Source of the DNA: a virus
Taxonomy: Duplodnaviria; Heunggongvirae; Uroviricota; Caudoviricetes
Strand: one strand, 5' to 3'
Virus record (IMG/VR): IMGVR_UViG_2713897140_000009
Coordinates: 1 to 5,943 of that record
DNA length: 5,943 nucleotides
Shown here: positions 1 to 5,943 of the stretch, piece by piece
Layout: every line of letters starts with the position of its first letter
How positions within the stretch are numbered: the stretch's first letter is position 1
Made by a program: the position numbers and the translations under genes
Notes under the pieces: model-generated
Database searches by the model: none
What the model was told of the DNA's origin: nothing
Seen by the model: only the letters and a program-made list of their open reading frames with translations

Positions 1-20
1 GCCCTGGAAATACCCCACAG

Positions 21-58
21 CCCCGAAAAAGAGCCAGTCAGTTGCTTAACTGACTGGC
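21..58 (-). terminator. Rho-independent terminator-like hairpin
   Basis: Perfect 11-bp stem GCCAGTCAGTT/AACTGACTGGC (33-43/48-58) with loop GCTT; on the minus strand the stem is followed by TCTTTTTC (complement of 24-31). Confidence 0.4.
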
Positions 59-240
59 ATTAACCGTAAGGGTTGGTTTTTTCTTGGCACGAGAGTATTC
101 AAAACGCGCCAATAACTACTTGATTTAATTGAAGTCGAAAATTTTAAGTCAAAAATCGTATAGCTTAACGTGTAGCTAAAAATGTTTGCTGCAAAAGTAT
201 ACAATTTTAACCGTTATGACTCCCTGTTATCCGCTATCAA

Positions 241-408
241 GCTGGTGGATGATCACTGATAACTCGTATGGGAATCCCCATATCGGCATCATGCCCATGC
301 CATAACAAAAACCCCATATTCGTGGGTTTTCTGTGTTGTGGCTATTCTGCCGTTGCCGTGCTGGTGGATATTTCCGGTATGTGGCTCACCATATCGGCAT
401 CATGCCCA
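241..408. repeat. Imperfect ~120-bp tandem duplication: GCTGGTGGAT (241-250, 360-369) each followed by the 20-bp repeat CCATATCGGCATCATGCCCA (278-297, 389-408)
   Basis: Exact 20-bp direct repeat and exact 10-bp direct repeat read directly from the sequence; spacing between the 10-mer and 20-mer differs between copies (27 vs 19 nt). Confidence 0.6.
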
Positions 409-626
409 CCAGCGTGATTGGTTGCTGGTGGGCTGCATCACCATCATGGTGATGATGCAGTGAATGTAAGGATTACTTAGGTTAGGGGCGTAACTCATTG
501 TCATTTTTTGAGCAGACCGGGAATCTCCGGTTTGGTTACTCTGTAACCAAGTCAATTTTATTTACTCTGTTGTGAGGGACTATAAGTTCTGCGCAAATTT
601 CCCCGGTTTCCTCAAATTGAGTTTCT

Positions 627-762
627 CGAAAATATCAGCGGGTTAGCGATTAAGCTGGCGAGTAATTAAACTGCGAAAATTTCGTAGTTTGTGACTATCT
701 GAAAGATAGTCGGTTGTTCCGACCTCAGCCATTGGCGGTCTCCGAAAATATCAACGGGTTAG
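627..762. repeat. Direct repeat pair CGAAAATATCA(G/A)CGGGTTAG (627-645 and 743-762), each containing an IHF-consensus-like core
   Basis: Two 19/20-nt matching copies 116 bp apart. Copy 2 contains TATCAACGGGTTA, matching the IHF consensus WATCAANNNNTTR exactly; copy 1 has one mismatch. Confidence 0.45.
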
Positions 763-768
763 GCCATC

Positions 769-808
769 GTGCAAATTTGCACTCTGCCAGCCAACGCAAT
801 TTTGCGTT
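769..808. promoter_or_regulatory. Two adjacent perfect palindromes with a shared core: GTGCAAATTTGCAC (769-782) and AACGCAATTTTGCGTT (793-808); candidate tandem operator
   Basis: Perfect 14-bp and 16-bp palindromes, centres about 25 bp apart, sharing a GCAA-(A/T-tract)-TTGC core. Two perfect palindromes of this length so close together are unlikely by chance. The binding protein is unknown. Confidence 0.4.
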
Positions 809-1027
809 ATCAGTCCTCAGATTTGAGGGATGTAGCCAGCTTTTCCCCCAATAGGGGGATTATCCAGTTACCGACGGTTTAACCGTCTGTGCCAGCACAA
901 CGAAAGAATTTGCGGGTAGCTTTAAACTACTTACAACATCCAATCTTACAGGCCGTGCCTTTCTAACTTTTTGCAATGTAATAAGTCAGGTAGCGCTATG
1001 CGTTCCACCGTGTACACCGCGTTCCGT

Positions 1028-1052
1028 AAAAACCACAGATTCGTGGTTTTCC
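1028..1052 (-). terminator. Terminator-like hairpin immediately after the Nu1-like ORF
   Basis: Stem AAAACCAC/GTGGTTTT with a 6-nt loop, located 15 nt past the stop at 1067-1069; the U-tract is partly inside the stem, so efficiency is uncertain. Confidence 0.35.
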
Positions 1053-1066
1053 TGAATATCATGAAT

Positions 1067-1451
1067 CTACCGCCGCAACCGTTCCGGCTTCTTCCACTGG
1101 TAAGTATTTTTCATGCTCTCCCTCCGTTGTTGAGAACGGCGACGGTATGCCAGCAACTCAAGGACTCTGGTTCGTATGTTGCGCATATCCACGCCGTTAA
1201 GCTCAATACCGTCACGGCGCATAACCTCAGCAACAACACGCGCATAGTTTTCGGCTGTCACGCTGTCCGGCTGCGTGGCCACCTGTTTGCCTGTTGCCTG
1301 ACTGATTCCGGTAATACGGCGGATTACTTTCAGTAGTTCGGCGTCGGTCATGGTTATGGTCTCCATAGTGATGGGGGAACAATTTCTGTAATCTGCGAAG
1401 CTGGCGATCGGTCAGACTCAAATGCCTGGCAACTTCAGTCTGAGTAGCCAC
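1067..1451 (-). CDS. Nu1-like (small terminase / Rpp-like) HTH protein, apparently frameshifted; would be 127 aa if the C5 run at 1373-1377 were C4
   Basis: GTG start at 1451 preceded by GAGGTG at a 5-6 nt spacing. N-terminus VATQTEVARHLSLTDRQLRRLQKL resembles the Nu1 winged-HTH (MEVNKKQLADIFGASIRTIQNWQ) and sits about 210 nt past cosN, as Nu1 does in lambda. That frame degenerates into low-complexity sequence after about 28 codons, while a protein-like reading frame (track ORF 1067..1366) continues in a different frame. A 1-nt change in the C5 homopolymer joins them. Confidence 0.5.
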
Positions 1452-1526
1452 TGTTCACCTCGCCAAAAAATCTCCCCTCATGCGTTTTAAACATGCATCT
1501 TGCGAACAACTTTATGAAACGCGGCA

Positions 1527-1706
1527 TATATGTCCGGTTTGAGTGTTCAATTTTTGCGCATGTCCGGTTCACGGAAAGTGAATTTTTATATTTTTCAAAT
1601 AGTTAACTCCCAGAAAAACCGGACATGGTTTCCGAAAAATTTTCATAAATAGTGAAATTCTGCGCCGCTCCCGCCCCGTAACGGGTCCATATGCCGGAAA
1701 GGACCC
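1527..1706 (-). other. Lambda-type cos site: cosQ (1694-1706), cosN region (1662-1680), conserved cosN-proximal block (1633-1656), and three ATGTCCGGTT repeats in R-site positions (1530-1539, 1560-1569; inverted copy 1617-1626)
   Basis: Minus strand reads ACGGGTCCTTTCCGG-N14-ACGGGGCGGGAGCGGCGCAGAATTTCACTATTTATGAAAATTTTTCGG, against my recall of lambda ACGGGTCCTTTCCGG-N14-ACGGGGCGGCGACCTCGCGGGTTTTCGCTATTTATGAAAATTTTCCGG. cosQ and the cosQ-cosN spacing are identical; the 12-nt cohesive-end position reads GGGCGGGAGCGG versus lambda GGGCGGCGACCT. The three 10-bp repeats (two direct, one inverted, with an AT-rich spacer) occupy the place of lambda R3/R2/R1 but differ in sequence. Confidence 0.6.
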
Positions 1707-1708
1707 GT

Positions 1709-1731
1709 AAAAAAAGCCGGATTTCTCCGGC
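1709..1731 (-). terminator. Rho-independent terminator of the capsid cassette
   Basis: Minus strand GCCGGAGAAATCCGGC followed by TTTTTTT, starting 5 nt past the stop of the 137-aa ORF. Confidence 0.65.
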
Positions 1732-1736
1732 CTGTC

Positions 1737-2150
1737 TCAGATGGTTTTCAGTATGCGATCGATGTCGCCGTCATCGCCCGGGTTTCTGCCATCGTATGCC
1801 ATGCCAGCTGATACGGCTTTCGGGCTGTGTATGTCCATAAAGTTTTCAAAGGCTGCGGTAAGCTCTGGTGCAACCTTCTGGCGTTCCTGCTCTATGGTCA
1901 TGCTAAGAATGCTTTTAGCCGTACCAACATCGATACAAGGCACGTTTGCCATTGCACGTAACAGCGGCTGATAGTCGCCAGATTCATCAAGCGCCATAAT
2001 CGCATCAGCGCGCGGCTTGTCCTGCTCTTCCAGTTTGTTAAGTTGATATATGGCCTCGTAGGTTGATAACCCTCTGTCAGCCATTGCCCGCGCTTCGGCT
2101 TTAAATTTACTCGCCAGCGGTAGCGCCATGATGCTTTCATTCGTTGCCAT
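1737..2150 (-). CDS. Hypothetical 137-aa protein, last gene of the capsid cassette
   Basis: ATG at 2150 with AGGGGGAA 4-5 nt upstream, starting 13 nt after the gpD-like stop, followed by a terminator. Protein-like composition; I do not recognise the family. Its position and size are similar to lambda FI, but no sequence similarity is seen. Confidence 0.6.
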   Translation of the reverse strand: MATNESIMALPLASKFKAEARAMADRGLSTYEAIYQLNKLEEQDKPRADAIMALDESGDYQPLLRAMANVPCIDVGTAKSILSMTIEQERQKVAPELTAAFENFMDIHSPKAVSAGMAYDGRNPGDDGDIDRILKTI

Positions 2151-2162
2151 CGTTCCCCCTGC

Positions 2163-2498
2163 TTATCGGGCCAGCGGCTGAACGGATACGCCAGAACCCG
2201 TAAAGGCGGCGCATTTTTTCGCATCGGTGTCGACGCTCTCAGGCCAGTTAACGGCGGCAATATTGAATATCCCCGTCTTGTAACACTGTGCTGATTTCTG
2301 CTTTGACGTGTCCACGGGGTACGCCGTCAGATAAACAGCCTTGCCAGATTCCTGACCATCCCACGCCTTAAACTCGCCATTGTCCGCCAGCATCAGCGGG
2401 GTAAATTCCTGAATAACGCCAGCATCAGCGGCAAAATGTACCAGCGTCGTGGCGACCTGCTGACTGCCTGCAAATAACTCAACATATGGAGTGCCCAT
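2163..2498 (-). CDS. Head decoration protein, lambda gpD-like (111 aa)
   Basis: TPLMLADNGEFKAWDG, YKTGIFNIAAVNWPE and KKCAAFTGSGVSV align with lambda gpD TPLMLDTSSRKLVAWDG, YKSGTFRYEDVLWPE and KKRTAFAGTAISIV. Same length class; GGGAGA Shine-Dalgarno 6 nt upstream of the ATG. Confidence 0.85.
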   Translation of the reverse strand: MGTPYVELFAGSQQVATTLVHFAADAGVIQEFTPLMLADNGEFKAWDGQESGKAVYLTAYPVDTSKQKSAQCYKTGIFNIAAVNWPESVDTDAKKCAAFTGSGVSVQPLAR

Positions 2499-2509
2499 AG
2501 AATCTCCCG

Positions 2510-3565
2510 TTAACCAATTTTGACGGTAACAAATTTGCGAATATCTGCCGGAACCGGCTGCGGTGCGCTGTGCGTCTGCACGTACTCAATCGCCGGATCG
2601 CCGTCCTCAATCCAGTTTTTCGGGTAAAACATGTTTTGCGTTGCGCCCGTTCTTACTGCGTCCTGATCCATAATCGCACCATAGGCCACCAGCCCTTTAT
2701 TGTTGGTGTTGCCCAGGACAAGCAAATCAGGCTCAAGGAAATATTTTTCGGTGCCGTCGCTGTCGGCGTATTTGCCGGAATAGACGATAAGGGCAATATC
2801 GCCCAGATAGCCTTTAAAGCTCACCACTTCGCCCAGGTTTTTACACGCCAGCTCTGCGGCGGATTCTGAACCACGGGAAAGATCGTACAGCTCGCGGAAT
2901 TTTTTAAAGCTGCGTAACGTTCGCCATACCTCAGCGCCCATAATCATGACGTTGGCGGGGCAGCTGGCCTGTTCGGCGTATAGCTCGATGTCATCTGTCG
3001 GATCATGCGTCTCTTTATTCTGCTCAGACCATTTTTTTCCTGGCCCCTGATGGACAATGCAGTTTGCCGGCATATTCCAGTCGATTTCATAGCGTTCTAT
3101 GCCTTCGCCTTCAATGATGTTTTTTCCGGTCGTGACCGCATTCACTGCCAGCCATTCCACACGCGCTTTAATGGCGTTTATCTGGCGGCGCATGTTGCCA
3201 GTAATGAGGCGCATACGTCGCCAGGTGGGGTCGTTAAGCTGTGCCGGATCTTCTCCAGCCATGCGCATAATGGTTTTTGATGGATCGATTTCGTGCTTTG
3301 GCTTCATGTAGCCGGGGCGGATAGTGCTTGTTTCGTACCCTTTATCGCGCTGAACCTGGCTACCCACCATAGGCGAACAAAACGCCGACATGGTGACTTC
3401 TTCAATATCCAGGGTATCCAGCATGATGTCCTGCGTGTTGAAGGTCGCCACGTTCGGAAAAAACAGCGACGTAAACAGCGGACTGAATCTAAAATCCGGA
3501 ACATCCTGCCGATTCAGGTACGCGAAAAGCTGGTTAGTGTTAAGAGCCGTTGCTTTACCTGCCAT
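2510..3565 (-). CDS. Major capsid protein, lambda gpE-like (351 aa)
   Basis: Multiple co-linear blocks shared with lambda gpE: FRFSPLFTSLFF vs FKFDPLFLRLFF; PGYMKPKHEIDP vs PGYVKPKHEVNP; DPTDDIELYA vs DPTDDIEAYA; YPKNWIEDGDPA vs YPKNWVTTGDPA; similar length (351 vs 341 aa). Confidence 0.92.
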   Translation of the reverse strand: MAGKATALNTNQLFAYLNRQDVPDFRFSPLFTSLFFPNVATFNTQDIMLDTLDIEEVTMSAFCSPMVGSQVQRDKGYETSTIRPGYMKPKHEIDPSKTIMRMAGEDPAQLNDPTWRRMRLITGNMRRQINAIKARVEWLAVNAVTTGKNIIEGEGIERYEIDWNMPANCIVHQGPGKKWSEQNKETHDPTDDIELYAEQASCPANVMIMGAEVWRTLRSFKKFRELYDLSRGSESAAELACKNLGEVVSFKGYLGDIALIVYSGKYADSDGTEKYFLEPDLLVLGNTNNKGLVAYGAIMDQDAVRTGATQNMFYPKNWIEDGDPAIEYVQTHSAPQPVPADIRKFVTVKIG

Positions 3566-3771
3566 TATTCACCCCCGTGAACCTGATTCATGCCCAACGC
3601 CGCACGTAAATAGGCGCGCACCTGCCAGCCTGTTGACGGCTCAACCATTGCCAGCGGATCAAGTCCTGCCGCAATGCTCGCTTTTACGTTCTGCTGGTGG
3701 CGTTCCTTGAGTGCCTCCACGATGTCGGGGCTTATGTAGACTGTAACCCCACCTTTTTTCTCTTCTGCCAT
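3565..3771 (-). CDS. Small hypothetical protein (68 aa from the ATG at 3771; track ORF extends to 3804), translationally coupled to the capsid gene
   Basis: The ATG at 3771 has AAGAGGAA about 9 nt upstream, whereas the upstream ATG at 3804 has no Shine-Dalgarno. Its TAA stop overlaps the gpE-like ATG (TAATG). Family not recognised. Confidence 0.5.
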   Translation of the reverse strand: MAEEKKGGVTVYISPDIVEALKERHQQNVKASIAAGLDPLAMVEPSTGWQVRAYLRAALGMNQVHGGE

Positions 3772-3804
3772 AGTCAGAAATTCCTCTTTGACGTTAAAAA
3801 TCAT

Positions 3805-3855
3805 AACTGGATGTTCATCCAGTTATGATTATAATCATGATTTCATATTTCGCAA
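3805..3855 (-). promoter_or_regulatory. Candidate sigma70 promoter of the capsid cassette (-35 TTGCGA at 3850-3855, 16-nt spacer, -10 TATAAT at 3828-3833) overlapping two dyad operators
   Basis: A perfect TATAAT lies inside the perfect 14-bp palindrome ATGATTATAATCAT (3825-3838). Immediately downstream is the dyad AACTGGATG-N2-CATCCAGTT (3805-3824). Prediction by eye only. Confidence 0.35.
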
Positions 3856-3930
3856 TAATATCGATCCATGTTGCAAATTATGAAATGATTTCCGGAAACA
3901 GTAGTCACCATGCTGTTAACCTCATATATG

Positions 3931-3974
3931 AAAAAGCCCGCTAAGTTTGCCTCCTGTACTTATCGGGCTTTTTT
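3931..3974. terminator. Bidirectional terminator-like hairpin (A5 - interrupted 10-bp stem - T6)
   Basis: AAAAAGCCCGCTAAGT...ACTTATCGGGCTTTTTT: stem flanked by an A-run on one side and a T-run on the other, so it could terminate on either strand. Confidence 0.35.
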
Positions 3975-4020
3975 ATCTGCCTGCAAAGGTGTCGAACAAA
4001 AAAACAATCAAAATCGACAC

Positions 4021-4064
4021 CATAAAAATAAAACCACTGTAATATCAATCCATTACAGTAGTGG
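4021..4064 (-). terminator. Terminator-like hairpin (second in tandem after the SSB gene)
   Basis: 8-bp stem ACTGTAAT/ATTACAGT (4036-4043/4052-4059) with an 8-nt loop; on the minus strand it is followed by TTTTATTTTTAT. Confidence 0.35.
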
Positions 4065-4101
4065 TGATGACGAATGAAATTTCAAAAACTAGCCTTTTTC
4101 C

Positions 4102-4145
4102 GCGCCGCTCCCGCCCCGTGGCAGGTCACTACACCGGGAGGACCC
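4102..4145 (-). other. Second cosQ/cosN-like segment, lacking the ATGTCCGGTT R-repeats
   Basis: The 18-mer GCGCCGCTCCCGCCCCGT (4102-4119) is identical to 1662-1679. It is followed after the same 14-nt spacing by a slightly degenerate cosQ (minus strand GGGTCCTCCCGG, 4134-4145). The surrounding ~75 bp is about 80% identical to 1660-1735. Confidence 0.45.
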
Positions 4146-4147
4146 AT

Positions 4148-4169
4148 AAAAAAGCCGGATTGCTCCGGC
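4148..4169 (-). terminator. Rho-independent terminator after the SSB gene
   Basis: Minus strand GCCGGAGCAATCCGGC followed by TTTTTT; a paralog of the terminator at 1709-1731. Confidence 0.6.
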
Positions 4170-4185
4170 TTCTGTTACTCGTTGC

Positions 4186-4862: not shown

Positions 4863-4911
4863 TTTTGTTTTTACCCCCCTCGTTTAAAAAGTTTTGGAGA
4901 TACCCCCACCT

Positions 4912-5138
4912 TGTCTACCTTATCTACCTGGTGGATGCTCAGGCCAGTAATGACGCGGGTTTTATGGTGGTAGACAGTAAAAAATCTCTGTCTACCTGAT
5001 GTCTACCCATCCCTCCGACTGGCTACAAAAACAGGTAGACAAGGTAGACAGCTTGTAGACAGTAAAAAAAAGCTGTCTACCTAAATTAATACACTGAATT
5101 AAAACAACTTTTATGTAATCAGGTAGACAAGGTAGACA
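4912..5138. repeat. Iteron-type replication origin: 11 copies of the 8-bp iteron GGTAGACA/TGTCTACC in both orientations, interspersed with A-tracts
   Basis: TGTCTACC at 4912, 4989, 5000, 5074 and a variant at 4921; GGTAGACA at 4969, 5034, 5043, 5122, 5131 and a variant at 5055. Tandem pairs have a 9-bp period. AGGTAGACAAGGTAGACAG occurs twice (5032-5050, 5120-5138). A-rich tracts at 4976-4984 and 5062-5070 could act as an unwinding element. Lies directly downstream of the rep ORF. Confidence 0.65.
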
Positions 5139-5152
5139 GCAATTGCCAAAAA

Positions 5153-5878: not shown

Positions 5879-5943
5879 CTCAGCGCTGATATGACTTTCC
5901 GTGTCAAACCGGAATCTCTAATTTTGACGATTTTCTTTTTAGG
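5875..5943 (-). CDS. 3' end of an upstream ORF continuing beyond the window (C-terminus ...PKKKIVKIRDSGLTRKVISALR)
   Basis: The only minus-strand frame open to the window edge; its TGA overlaps the rep ATG. Too short to identify. Confidence 0.3.
   Translation of the reverse strand, partial: PKKKIVKIRDSGLTRKVISALR

What the first reader, a model, noticed from the sequence alone, without database searches (positions are those of the whole stretch)
1662..4169. Capsid cassette bracketed by direct repeats of a terminator-cosQ-cosN unit
Two ~75-bp segments (1660-1735 and 4100-4170), about 2.44 kb apart and in the same orientation, share an identical 18-mer GCGCCGCTCCCGCCCCGT, the same 14-nt spacing to a cosQ-like element and a paralogous terminator hairpin, at about 80% identity overall. 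Only the copy at 1660-1735 is followed by the ATGTCCGGTT R-repeats and the Nu1-like ORF. The repeats exactly flank the capsid cassette. This suggests the cassette was acquired or duplicated by recombination at cos, or that the second copy is a termination-only site that could exclude or include the cassette during packaging.
Basis: partly seen in the sequence, partly recalled or inferred. Interest (0 to 1): 0.75.

Follow-up and report, generated by a model that had tools for sequence, protein, structure and literature searches.

The report
Two helper-type cos sites bracket capsid module
In this E. coli phage satellite (a PICI), the capsid-gene module sits between two genuine phage-type DNA-packaging (cos) sites, each copied from a different group of helper prophages; this is a new layout of a known trait (PICIs with two cos sites), not a new kind of system.

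Summary
The repeat is real. Two terminator–cosQ–cosN units lie 2,440 bp apart in direct orientation and share an identical 18-mer. They bracket an operon encoding a small protein, a gpE-like capsid protein, a gpD-like decoration protein and a scaffold-like protein.

The window is the right half of an EcCICFT073-like Gram-negative PICI, here made defective by IS insertions.

Neither copy is an in-situ duplicate of the other, and the upstream copy is not "termination-only".
- **Upstream copy:** it is orthologous to the single cos of cassette-less relatives. It keeps 132 of the 186 bp that separate cosN from terS in "type A" prophages, at 95–98% identity.
- **Downstream copy:** it is 97% identical to "type B" λ-like prophages from cosN through cosB and the first 24 codons of phage terS. 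This stub replaces rpp.

Relatives show presence or absence of a capsid module exactly at cos. A second, unrelated module (a ClpP-protease/MCP fusion) is bracketed the same way: 28 distinct loci in all.

PICIs with two cos sites are already published (EcCICFT073 cos1/cos2), but those are inverted around rppA.

**Verdict:** This is a new variant of a known kind. The function (dual-helper packaging, cassette loss by cos-to-cos cutting) is inferred, not shown.

The parts
4146..4175 (-). Intrinsic terminator after ssb (GAAGCCGGAGCAATCCGGC + T-run), 5' of the upstream cos
   Evidence: Fold -18.0 kcal/mol, z -3.3. Identical in the cassette-less relative L089. 95% identical to the hairpin at 1710-1731.
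4134..4148 (-). cosQ of the upstream cos (copy 2); GGGTCC at 4145-4140
   Evidence: Same sequence and 29-nt spacing as the type A/B prophage cos.
4105..4116 (-). cosN of the upstream cos: GGGCGGGAGCGG (bp 1 = 4116)
   Evidence: The exact 18-mer around it occurs in 85 IMG/VR stretches, many on 30-60 kb phage contigs.
3985..4104 (-). Truncated 'type A' helper cosB: bp 13-132 of the 186 bp between cosN and terS in the phage. Candidate R3-equivalent TCATCACCAC at bp 47-56 (4070-4061); related motifs at 4021-4014 and 3995-3988.
   Evidence: cosQ to bp 120 is 95-98% identical to about 25 prophage contigs. Junction at bp 133 = window 3984. The junction is shared with IHE3034.
3928..3976 (-). Second terminator-like hairpin (T2) at the start of the capsid module
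   Evidence: Inverted repeat I5. Fold -17.5 kcal/mol, z -2.8. Present in CFT073 and IHE3034.
3799..3855 (-). Promoter-like site (TTGCGA-16-TATAAT, 3855-3828) and a perfect 15-bp inverted repeat (3799-3813 / 3816-3830) over the start of the first gene of the capsid operon
   Evidence: A consensus match only; not tested.
3565..3804 (-). 79-aa ORF (68 aa from the internal ATG at 3771), phrog_3255, function unknown
   Evidence: The AF2 model has low confidence (pLDDT 64), so no fold assignment.
2510..3565 (-). Major capsid protein, lambda gpE family (351 aa)
   Evidence: PF03864, 9e-50. PDB 3bqw, 4e-219, and lambda gpE 7vi9, 1e-82. 44% identical to the E protein of CFT073 phage 4.
2163..2498 (-). 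Head decoration protein, lambda gpD family (111 aa)
   Evidence: PF02924, 2.9e-17. phrog_49.
1737..2150 (-). 137-aa protein, phrog_1999; its C-terminal part resembles the C-terminus (Nu3/scaffold part) of the helper S49 prohead protease
   Evidence: phrog_53 positions 494-567. 35% identity over 83 aa to residues 416-493 of the L188 protease.
1707..1736 (-). Intrinsic terminator of the capsid operon, 5' of the downstream cos
   Evidence: Terminator scan 1733-1714. Fold -17.7 kcal/mol, z -2.95.
1695..1710 (-). cosQ of the downstream cos (copy 1); TTTACGGGTCCTTTCC as in lambda, GGGTCC at 1706-1701, 30-nt spacing
   Evidence: Same cosQ and spacer as the published EcCICFT073 cos1.
1665..1676 (-). 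cosN of the downstream cos: GGGCGGGAGCGG (bp 1 = 1676)
1452..1664 (-). Complete 'type B' helper cosB with three ATGTCCGGTT elements (1626-1617 = bp 51-60, the R3 position; 1569-1560 and 1539-1530 inverted)
   Evidence: bp 1-294 is 96.9% identical to prophage L153, and the last 179 bp are 100% identical. Same cosB type as the published EcCICFT073 cos2.
1380..1451 (-). 24-codon stub of a type B phage terS (GTG start at 1451); homology to the phage ends at 1383
   Evidence: The full gene (169 aa) is in prophage L188.
1067..1366 (-). 99-aa ORF (phrog_1561), conserved last gene of these satellites; homolog of the 93-aa ORF after cos2 in EcCICFT073

Best explanation
The two repeats are two genuine lambda-type cos sites (cosQ + cosN) of an EcCICFT073-like Gram-negative PICI. 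Each is joined to a different cosB module captured from a different group of helper prophages. They are not copies of each other made in place.

**Upstream site.** This is the original cos of the replication backbone (pri-ssb-terminator-cos). Its type A cosB was cut off at bp 132, where the capsid module was joined on.

**Downstream site.** This cos travels with the capsid module. In this lineage its right half (right half of cosN, cosB, first 24 codons of terS) was overwritten by recombination with a type B lambda-like prophage, which removed rpp.

**Why the 18-mer is identical.** Type A and type B prophages use the same cosQ-cosN.

**How it would work (inferred).**
- A type B helper starts packaging at the downstream site, whose cosB is complete.
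- A type A helper could start at the upstream site, where a candidate R3-equivalent is retained at the right distance.
- Any helper's terminase could cut at either site when a head is full, because termination needs cosQ + cosN but no matching cosB.
- Cutting at the downstream site and then the next upstream site leaves out the 2.44-kb capsid module. This yields the one-cos, cassette-less form seen in relatives.

**Shown:** the identity and homology of every part, the mosaic origin, and presence/absence of the cassette at cos.
**Inferred:** which sites are cut, and by which helper.
For: **PICI identity.** The gene order int, HTH regulator, icd-like, primase, ori, ssb, capsid genes, cos matches EcCICFT073.

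**Upstream copy.**
- It is identical to L089's only cos from ssb through cosN, including a private spacer variant.
- cosQ to bp 120 is 95-98% identical to about 25 prophage contigs, where it lies 186 bp before a DUF1441-type terS.

**Downstream copy.**
- It has the same terminator, cosQ and spacer as the published EcCICFT073 cos1.
- From cosN onward it is 96.9% identical to type B prophages, and 100% identical over the last 179 bp. One of these prophages (L153) is in the same genome as an identical PICI.

**Cassette polymorphism.**
- The flanks of the empty sites L089/L155 are 93-95% identical to the left flank of the upstream copy. They are 90-98% identical to the right flank of the downstream copy in L092, L134, L138 and L170.
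- 28 distinct loci have two direct cos sites 2.4-3.4 kb apart around a capsid module: 13 with gpE/gpD and 15 with a ClpP-protease/MCP fusion.
- In the ClpP-MCP type, the upstream site holds a complete phage type C cosB plus the first codons of phage terS.

**R3-like elements.** They sit at bp 51-60 (copy 1) and bp 47-56 (copy 2). Lambda and N15 R3 lie at bp 48-65 (PMC9026076).

**Published rules.**
- Termination works at a heterologous cos, right-half cosN changes are tolerated, and mismatched cohesive ends remain viable (PMC4669245).
- Both cos sites of EcCICFT073 are functional when cloned (PMC6092414).
Against: - No packaging data exist for this element.
- All three complete-genome copies are defective: primase is cut by an IS110-family element, or int by IS21; the icd-like gene is frameshifted; rpp is absent.
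- The upstream copy lacks the terS-proximal 54 bp of phage cosB.
- Only 15 of 77 gpE/gpD-cassette relatives have an upstream copy. In 13 of those 15 its cosN is altered; the commonest variant (11 loci) has lost 1 nt relative to the nearest prophage cosN and is never found in phage contigs. CFT073 has lost the upstream copy altogether. This looks like relaxed or negative selection.
- Deleting the second cos of EcCICFT073 increased transfer (PMC6092414).
- I found no co-resident type A prophage in the one genome I could check.
Confidence: 0.6

Rival explanations
1. The upstream copy is only a scar. It is the disabled former cos of the backbone, left behind when the capsid module with its own cos was joined on, and it has no present role in packaging.
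For: - It is truncated at bp 132 of 186.
- It is present in only 15 of 77 gpE/gpD-cassette loci and altered in 13 of those.
- The commonest variant occurs only in satellites.
- It is deleted in CFT073.
- The element in the window is itself defective.
Against: - In the window lineage cosQ, cosN and 120 bp of cosB are 95-98% identical to live prophage cos sites, which is far better kept than in IHE3034.
- In 15 ClpP-MCP satellites both cosN are intact-looking (12-mers identical in 5, differing at one position in 9). In the one examined (L126), the upstream site holds a complete phage cosB.
Confidence: 0.25
2. One reading: the second copy is a termination-only site. Its purpose is to include or exclude the capsid cassette from packaged DNA.
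For: - cosQ + cosN are intact and match the downstream cosN, so the ends would anneal.
- Termination does not need a matching cosB (PMC4669245).
- Cassette-less relatives have exactly the predicted joint.
Against: - It carries helper-type cosB with a candidate R3-equivalent, so it is not built as termination-only.
- It is the ortholog of the sole cos, which must be the initiation site, of cassette-less relatives.
- Regular loss of the cassette would work against the cassette's own maintenance.
- The same joint could arise by ordinary recombination between the repeats.
Confidence: 0.12
3. The repeat is an in-situ duplication, or a target-site duplication made when a mobile capsid cassette inserted at cos.
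For: Direct repeats flank the cassette. The terminator hairpins are 95% identical over 22 nt.
Against: - The spacers between cosQ and cosN differ at about half their positions and in length, 30 versus 29 nt.
- The sequences after cosN are unrelated and match two different phage groups.
- No transposase or integrase lies in the cassette.
- In ClpP-MCP satellites the two terminators are unrelated.
Confidence: 0.03
4. The repeats are just paralogous transcription terminators with a chance G+C-rich tail, unrelated to cos.
For: Both contain good intrinsic terminators.
Against: - The non-terminator part is the conserved part.
- It equals the cosQ-cosN found just before terS in prophages, which lack these terminators.
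- Its layout matches lambda cos and the experimentally validated EcCICFT073 cos1.
Confidence: 0.01

Closest known systems
EcCICFT073 cos1 and cos2 (Fillol-Salom et al. 2018, PMC6092414; 2019, PMC6739421)
   Same: Same PICI family and gene order, with the same capsid and decoration genes (c1499/c1500). The window's downstream copy sits at the cos1 position, with the same terminator, cosQ and spacer. Its cosB is the same type as that of cos2. There are two cos sites with different cosB in one island.
   Different: In CFT073 the two sites are inverted and flank rppA, both carry the lambda cosN GGGCGGCGACCT, and there is no cos upstream of the capsid genes. Here the sites are direct, flank the capsid module, carry cosN GGGCGGGAGCGG, and rpp is missing.
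Lambda cos (cosQ-cosN-cosB) and lambda derivatives with duplicated cos sites (Emmons 1974; Feiss and Campbell 1974; recalled from memory, not read here)
   Same: Same subsite order and spacing, with an R3-like element at about bp 50-60. Two direct cos sites are expected to give alternative cut points and loss of the DNA between them.
   Different: The right half of cosN differs from lambda's. The two sites carry different cosB types. They occur naturally in a satellite rather than in a laboratory phage.
Satellites that carry their helper's cos: SaPIbov5/SaPIbov4, and HE-PICI 11capE, which shares 258 bp at 90% with helper 50icd (PMC10111431)
   Same: Capture of helper cos DNA by a satellite. 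SaPIbov4 is also reported to have two putative cos sites (PMC6092414).
   Different: Here two different helper cos types are carried at once, and they bracket the capsid module.
Capsid-forming PICIs (cf-PICIs; bioRxiv 10.1101/2022.09.08.507074)
   Same: A satellite that encodes its own capsid protein.
   Different: cf-PICIs encode a full head and packaging module (terminase, portal, protease, connectors). This element has only MCP, a decoration protein and a scaffold-like protein.

Membership tests
Lambda-type cos site | 12-nt cosN flanked by conserved ACG / CGC, lying just upstream of terS in phage genomes | tested here: met
   Both copies read ACG GGGCGGGAGCGG CGC. The same sequence lies 186-226 bp before terS in prophages L005, L006, L091, L153 and L188.
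Lambda-type cos site | cosQ about 30 bp upstream of cosN | tested here: met
   GGGTCC lies 30 nt (copy 1) and 29 nt (copy 2) before GGGCGG.
Lambda-type cos site | cosB with a TerS-binding R element at about bp 48-65, followed by terS | tested here: inconclusive
   Copy 1 has a complete type B cosB with ATGTCCGGTT at bp 51-60, but only a 24-codon terS stub. Copy 2 has 132 of 186 bp of type A cosB, with a candidate element at bp 47-56 and no terS. Binding was not tested.
Lambda-type cos site | Cleavage by terminase to give 12-nt cohesive ends | not testable with these tools
   Needs end-mapping of packaged DNA.
Gram-negative PICI (EcCICFT073-like) | About 10-15 kb island with int, alpA-type regulator, primase-replicase plus ori iterons and unidirectional genes, integrated at a specific site | tested here: met
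   L001/L191: int next to tRNA-Pro, HTH regulator, icd-like gene, primase, iterons at window 4900-5140, ssb; about 11.4 kb without IS. Same order as CFT073.
Gram-negative PICI (EcCICFT073-like) | Rpp protein that redirects helper TerS to the island's cosB | tested here: not met
   No rpp is present. Its place is taken by a phage terS stub. RppA = c1503, 144 aa, in CFT073.
Gram-negative PICI (EcCICFT073-like) | Induction and high-frequency transfer by a helper phage | not testable with these tools
   The copies seen carry inactivating IS insertions.
Published EcCICFT073 two-cos arrangement | cos1 and cos2 inverted, flanking rppA, downstream of the capsid genes | tested here: not met
   CFT073 sites lie at L004 17559 (+) and 18298 (-). 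The window sites are direct and flank the capsid genes.
Target-site duplication of a mobile cassette | Flanking repeats identical at origin, and a recombinase in the cassette | tested here: not met
   Different spacers and flanks. No recombinase.
Capsid-forming PICI | Own terminase, portal, protease, MCP and connectors | tested here: not met
   Only MCP, a decoration protein and a scaffold-like protein.

The most novel reading that the evidence does not exclude
Direct cos pairs make the capsid module a terminase-delimited cassette. Cutting at both sites and annealing of the shared cohesive ends would let satellites lose, gain or swap capsid modules (gpE/gpD type or ClpP-MCP type) to match a new helper. 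At the same time, the two cosB types would let one island be packaged by two helper groups. [quoted passage not shown]
Probability: 0.15. Interest if true: 0.75.

Novelty: new variant of a known kind. Interest (0 to 1): 0.5.

Why it matters
PICIs spread virulence genes by hijacking phage packaging. The authors of the EcCICFT073 work explicitly left open why some PICIs carry two cos sites.

The comparison here suggests a concrete and testable answer. The extra sites are captured cos sites of other helper-phage groups, exchanged by recombination at the conserved cosQ-cosN. The capsid module sits in a slot bounded by such sites.

If both sites are used, this would widen the helper range and explain how capsid modules are gained and lost. 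If not, the pair is a clear footprint of how these mosaics are built.

Tried and rejected
- **Genome-contig scan with the MCP:** it found pattern matches but no confirmed relative, so diversity outside IMG/VR and E. coli was not sampled.
- **The published EcCICFT073 cos1/cos2 as the same pair:** rejected. They are inverted around rppA, and CFT073 lacks the upstream copy.
- **The IHE3034-type cosN variant as a real phage cosN:** rejected. It has 18 exact matches, all on contigs of 18 kb or less. It is a 1-nt-deleted version of an O157 prophage cos.
- **RHH-repressor guess for the 79-aa protein:** Pfam and PDB gave nothing, and the single-sequence AlphaFold model was poor (pLDDT 64), so no claim is made.
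- **137-aa protein against the PDB:** nothing.
- **Rfam and tRNA scans of the window:** nothing credible.
- **Recent homogenisation of the two copies in the window:** rejected, because the spacers differ. In some ClpP-MCP satellites the two copies do share private spacer variants. I did not pursue this.


Full report
**1. What the window is**

All genes of interest lie on the minus strand. In reading order they are:
- the C-terminal part of a D5/P4-type primase (5878-5153);
- ori iterons (about 4900-5140);
- an 85-aa ORF;
- SSB (4608-4186);
- repeat copy 2 (4100-4175);
- a five-part capsid unit (terminator T2, promoter-like site, 79-aa ORF, gpE-like major capsid protein, gpD-like decoration protein) followed by a 137-aa protein;
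- repeat copy 1 (1660-1736);
- a region with ATGTCCGGTT repeats;
- a 24-codon gene stub;
- a 99-aa ORF.

Three complete E. coli genomes hold the window at 99.9% identity. In them it is the right half of an island of about 11.4 kb (not counting IS elements), next to tRNA-Pro/yejM. The island carries int, an HTH regulator, icd-like genes and a primase. This is the gene order of the Gram-negative PICI EcCICFT073.

These copies are defective. Primase is cut by an IS110-family element in two genomes, and window 5888-5943 is that IS end. Int is cut by IS21 in the third.

**2. The observation**

The 18-mer occurs at 1662-1679 and 4102-4119; about 0.0003 such pairs are expected by chance. The units are 82% identical over 123 aligned columns.

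Each starts with a good intrinsic terminator. It is followed, on the minus strand, by cosQ (GGGTCC), a spacer, and ACG GGGCGGGAGCGG CGC. This is the layout of lambda cos and of the experimentally validated EcCICFT073 cos1. The spacing is 30 nt in copy 1 and 29 nt in copy 2, and the spacers differ at about half their positions.

The bracketed genes are a gpE-family capsid protein (PDB 3bqw, 4e-219; lambda gpE, 1e-82) and a gpD-family decoration protein. There is also a protein whose C-terminus resembles the scaffold end of the helper's prohead protease.

**3. What is already published**

EcCICFT073 was shown to carry two functional cos sites. cos1 is needed for transfer and is recognised through RppA-TerS. 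Deleting cos2 raised transfer. The capsid homolog c1499 has no known phenotype, and the island is packaged as phage-length DNA (PMC6092414, PMC6739421). The authors asked why some PICIs have two cos sites.

I located both sites in CFT073. cos1 follows the 137-aa gene. cos2 lies inverted on the far side of rppA. At the position of the window's copy 2, CFT073 has only the terminator. So the window's pair is not the published pair.

**4. Each copy matches a different helper-phage cos**

*Copy 2.* From cosQ to bp 120 after the cut site, copy 2 is 95-98% identical to the cos of about 25 prophage contigs. In these "type A" prophages it lies 186 bp before a DUF1441-type terS. That terS is followed by a 700-aa TerL, a portal and a ClpP-protease/MCP fusion. 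The window keeps bp 1-132 and then joins T2.

*Copy 1.* From cosN onward, copy 1 is 96.9% identical to "type B" prophages, and 100% identical over the last 179 bp. The match runs through cosB and the first 72 nt of their terS and ends at window 1383. Type B prophages have lambda-like TerS, TerL, portal, S49 protease and D and E genes. One of them (L153) is in the same IMG genome as an identical copy of this PICI.

*Left part of copy 1.* The terminator, cosQ and spacer of copy 1 are those of EcCICFT073 cos1. Copy 1 is therefore a chimera with a breakpoint in cosN, and the exchange removed rpp.

*The shared 18-mer.* Type A and type B prophages share the same cosQ-spacer-cosN and upstream context, although their TerL proteins are only 24% identical and their TerS proteins are unrelated. 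That is why the two copies share the 18-mer.

**5. Relatives with and without the cassette**

L089 and L155 have primase, SSB, terminator, one cos, a TerS homolog and the final ORF, with no capsid genes. From ssb through cosN they are identical to the window's copy 2, including a private spacer variant.

A second satellite type (L126, L161 and others) has a 68-aa ORF plus a ClpP-protease/MCP fusion between two direct cos sites. The 600 bp left of L089's cos are 93-95% identical to the left flank of the upstream site in four of these (L092, L134, L138, L170). The 600 bp to its right are 90-98% identical to the right flank of their downstream site. So the presence or absence of the module is exact at cos.

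In all, 28 distinct loci have two direct cos sites 2.4-3.4 kb apart around a capsid module: 13 with gpE/gpD and 15 with ClpP-MCP. In the ClpP-MCP type examined (L126), the upstream site holds a complete phage "type C" cosB and the first codons of that phage's terS. The downstream site is followed by the satellite's own TerS, which in L089 is 68% identical to type A phage TerS.

**6. How general is the upstream copy for the gpE/gpD module?**

I examined 80 IMG/VR loci with this capsid gene.
- The downstream cos is present in 65 of the 72 loci that extend far enough.
- An inverted third cos (the CFT073 layout) is present in 40 of 49.
- The upstream copy is present in 15 of 77 (about 20 by similarity score).

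Only the two window-identical loci have an intact upstream cosN. The commonest variant is GGGCGGGAGGCG. It occurs only on small satellite contigs. It is a 1-nt-deleted form of an O157 prophage cos. It is paired with a lambda-type downstream cosN, so the cohesive ends would not match.

IHE3034 and the window share the same junction between the cosB remnant and T2. One ancestral joining event is therefore likely, followed by decay in one line and refreshment from phage DNA in the other. The IHE3034 form is in 171 of 5,426 complete genomes. The window form is in 3.

**7. Mechanism**

*Shown:* the identity of the parts and their mosaic origin.

*Inferred from lambda biology:*
- Initiation needs cosN plus a correctly spaced R3-type element in cosB (PMC9026076).

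Copy 1 has ATGTCCGGTT at bp 51-60. Copy 2 has TCATCACCAC at bp 47-56. These are candidate R3-equivalents, not demonstrated binding sites.

A type B helper should therefore start at copy 1, and a type A helper might start at copy 2. Either terminase could cut at whichever site it meets once the head is full.

For an 11.4-kb unit in a lambda-sized head, the first site past about 38 kb after a start at copy 1 is copy 2, at 43.2 kb. This is my own arithmetic, using the published finding that these islands are packaged as phage-length DNA. The circle formed after injection would have one unit without the capsid module. That is the one-cos joint seen in L089-type elements. Ordinary recombination between the repeats would give the same product, so sequence alone cannot separate the two routes.

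**8. Judgement**

The cos reading and the link between cos and cassette gain or loss are supported. In-situ duplication and a "termination-only" site are not supported.

The element belongs to a known family, and the trait "two cos sites" is known. Three things are new in the literature I could search:
- the direct arrangement around the capsid module;
- its recurrence with an unrelated capsid module;
- the match of each site to a different helper cos type.

The function is untested, and this particular copy is a defective island. Interest is therefore moderate.

Noticed in passing
L004 18140-18340 (EcCICFT073 cos2), compared with L153 and L188: The published EcCICFT073 cos2 has a cosB that matches the native cosB of widespread type B lambda-like prophages (ATGTCCGGTT elements) over about 170 bp. 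The original papers describe PICI cosB as completely divergent from phage cosB. cos2 may simply be a captured cos of another helper group.
   Followed up: partly
L005/L091 (type A) versus L153/L188 (type B): Two prophage groups share the same cosQ-spacer-cosN and the same upstream DNA. Their TerS proteins are unrelated, their TerL proteins are only 24% identical, and their head modules differ. This implies a recombination hotspot at cosN and loose cosN specificity of TerL.
   Followed up: partly
window 4900-5140: The ori iteron array (GGTAGACA-type repeats, units of 85-88 bp) appears to have one more unit than in the closest genome. 5,864 query bases align to 5,778 record bases in two pieces.
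   Followed up: no
window 5888-5943: The last 56 bases are not PICI DNA. They correspond to the end of an IS110-family element (ISSso6) inserted in the primase gene in strains VL7S7 and O121 201805972. In FDAARGOS_943 primase is intact, but int is cut by IS21.
   Followed up: partly
window 1-1066: About 1 kb at the island's end has no convincing ORF. It contains paired direct repeats (266-297/377-408 at 88%; 627-646/743-762 at 95%) and several hairpins. There is no Rfam match.
   Followed up: no
window 3799-3855: The capsid operon has its own promoter-like site (10 of 12 consensus matches). A perfect 15-bp inverted repeat overlaps the start of its first gene, which suggests a dedicated regulator. 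The small first ORF could not be assigned a fold.
   Followed up: partly
L189 4713-7120 and L190: An O157:H7 prophage terL gene is interrupted by an integrase-led island. In strain UTAK-6 a ClpP-MCP satellite sits inside a prophage terminase gene. These are examples of the helper-embedded PICIs described in PMC10111431.
   Followed up: no
L092, L126, L134, L138, L141: In several ClpP-MCP satellites the two cos copies share private variants in the cosQ-cosN spacer. This hints at gene conversion between the copies. It is not seen in the window's pair.
   Followed up: no
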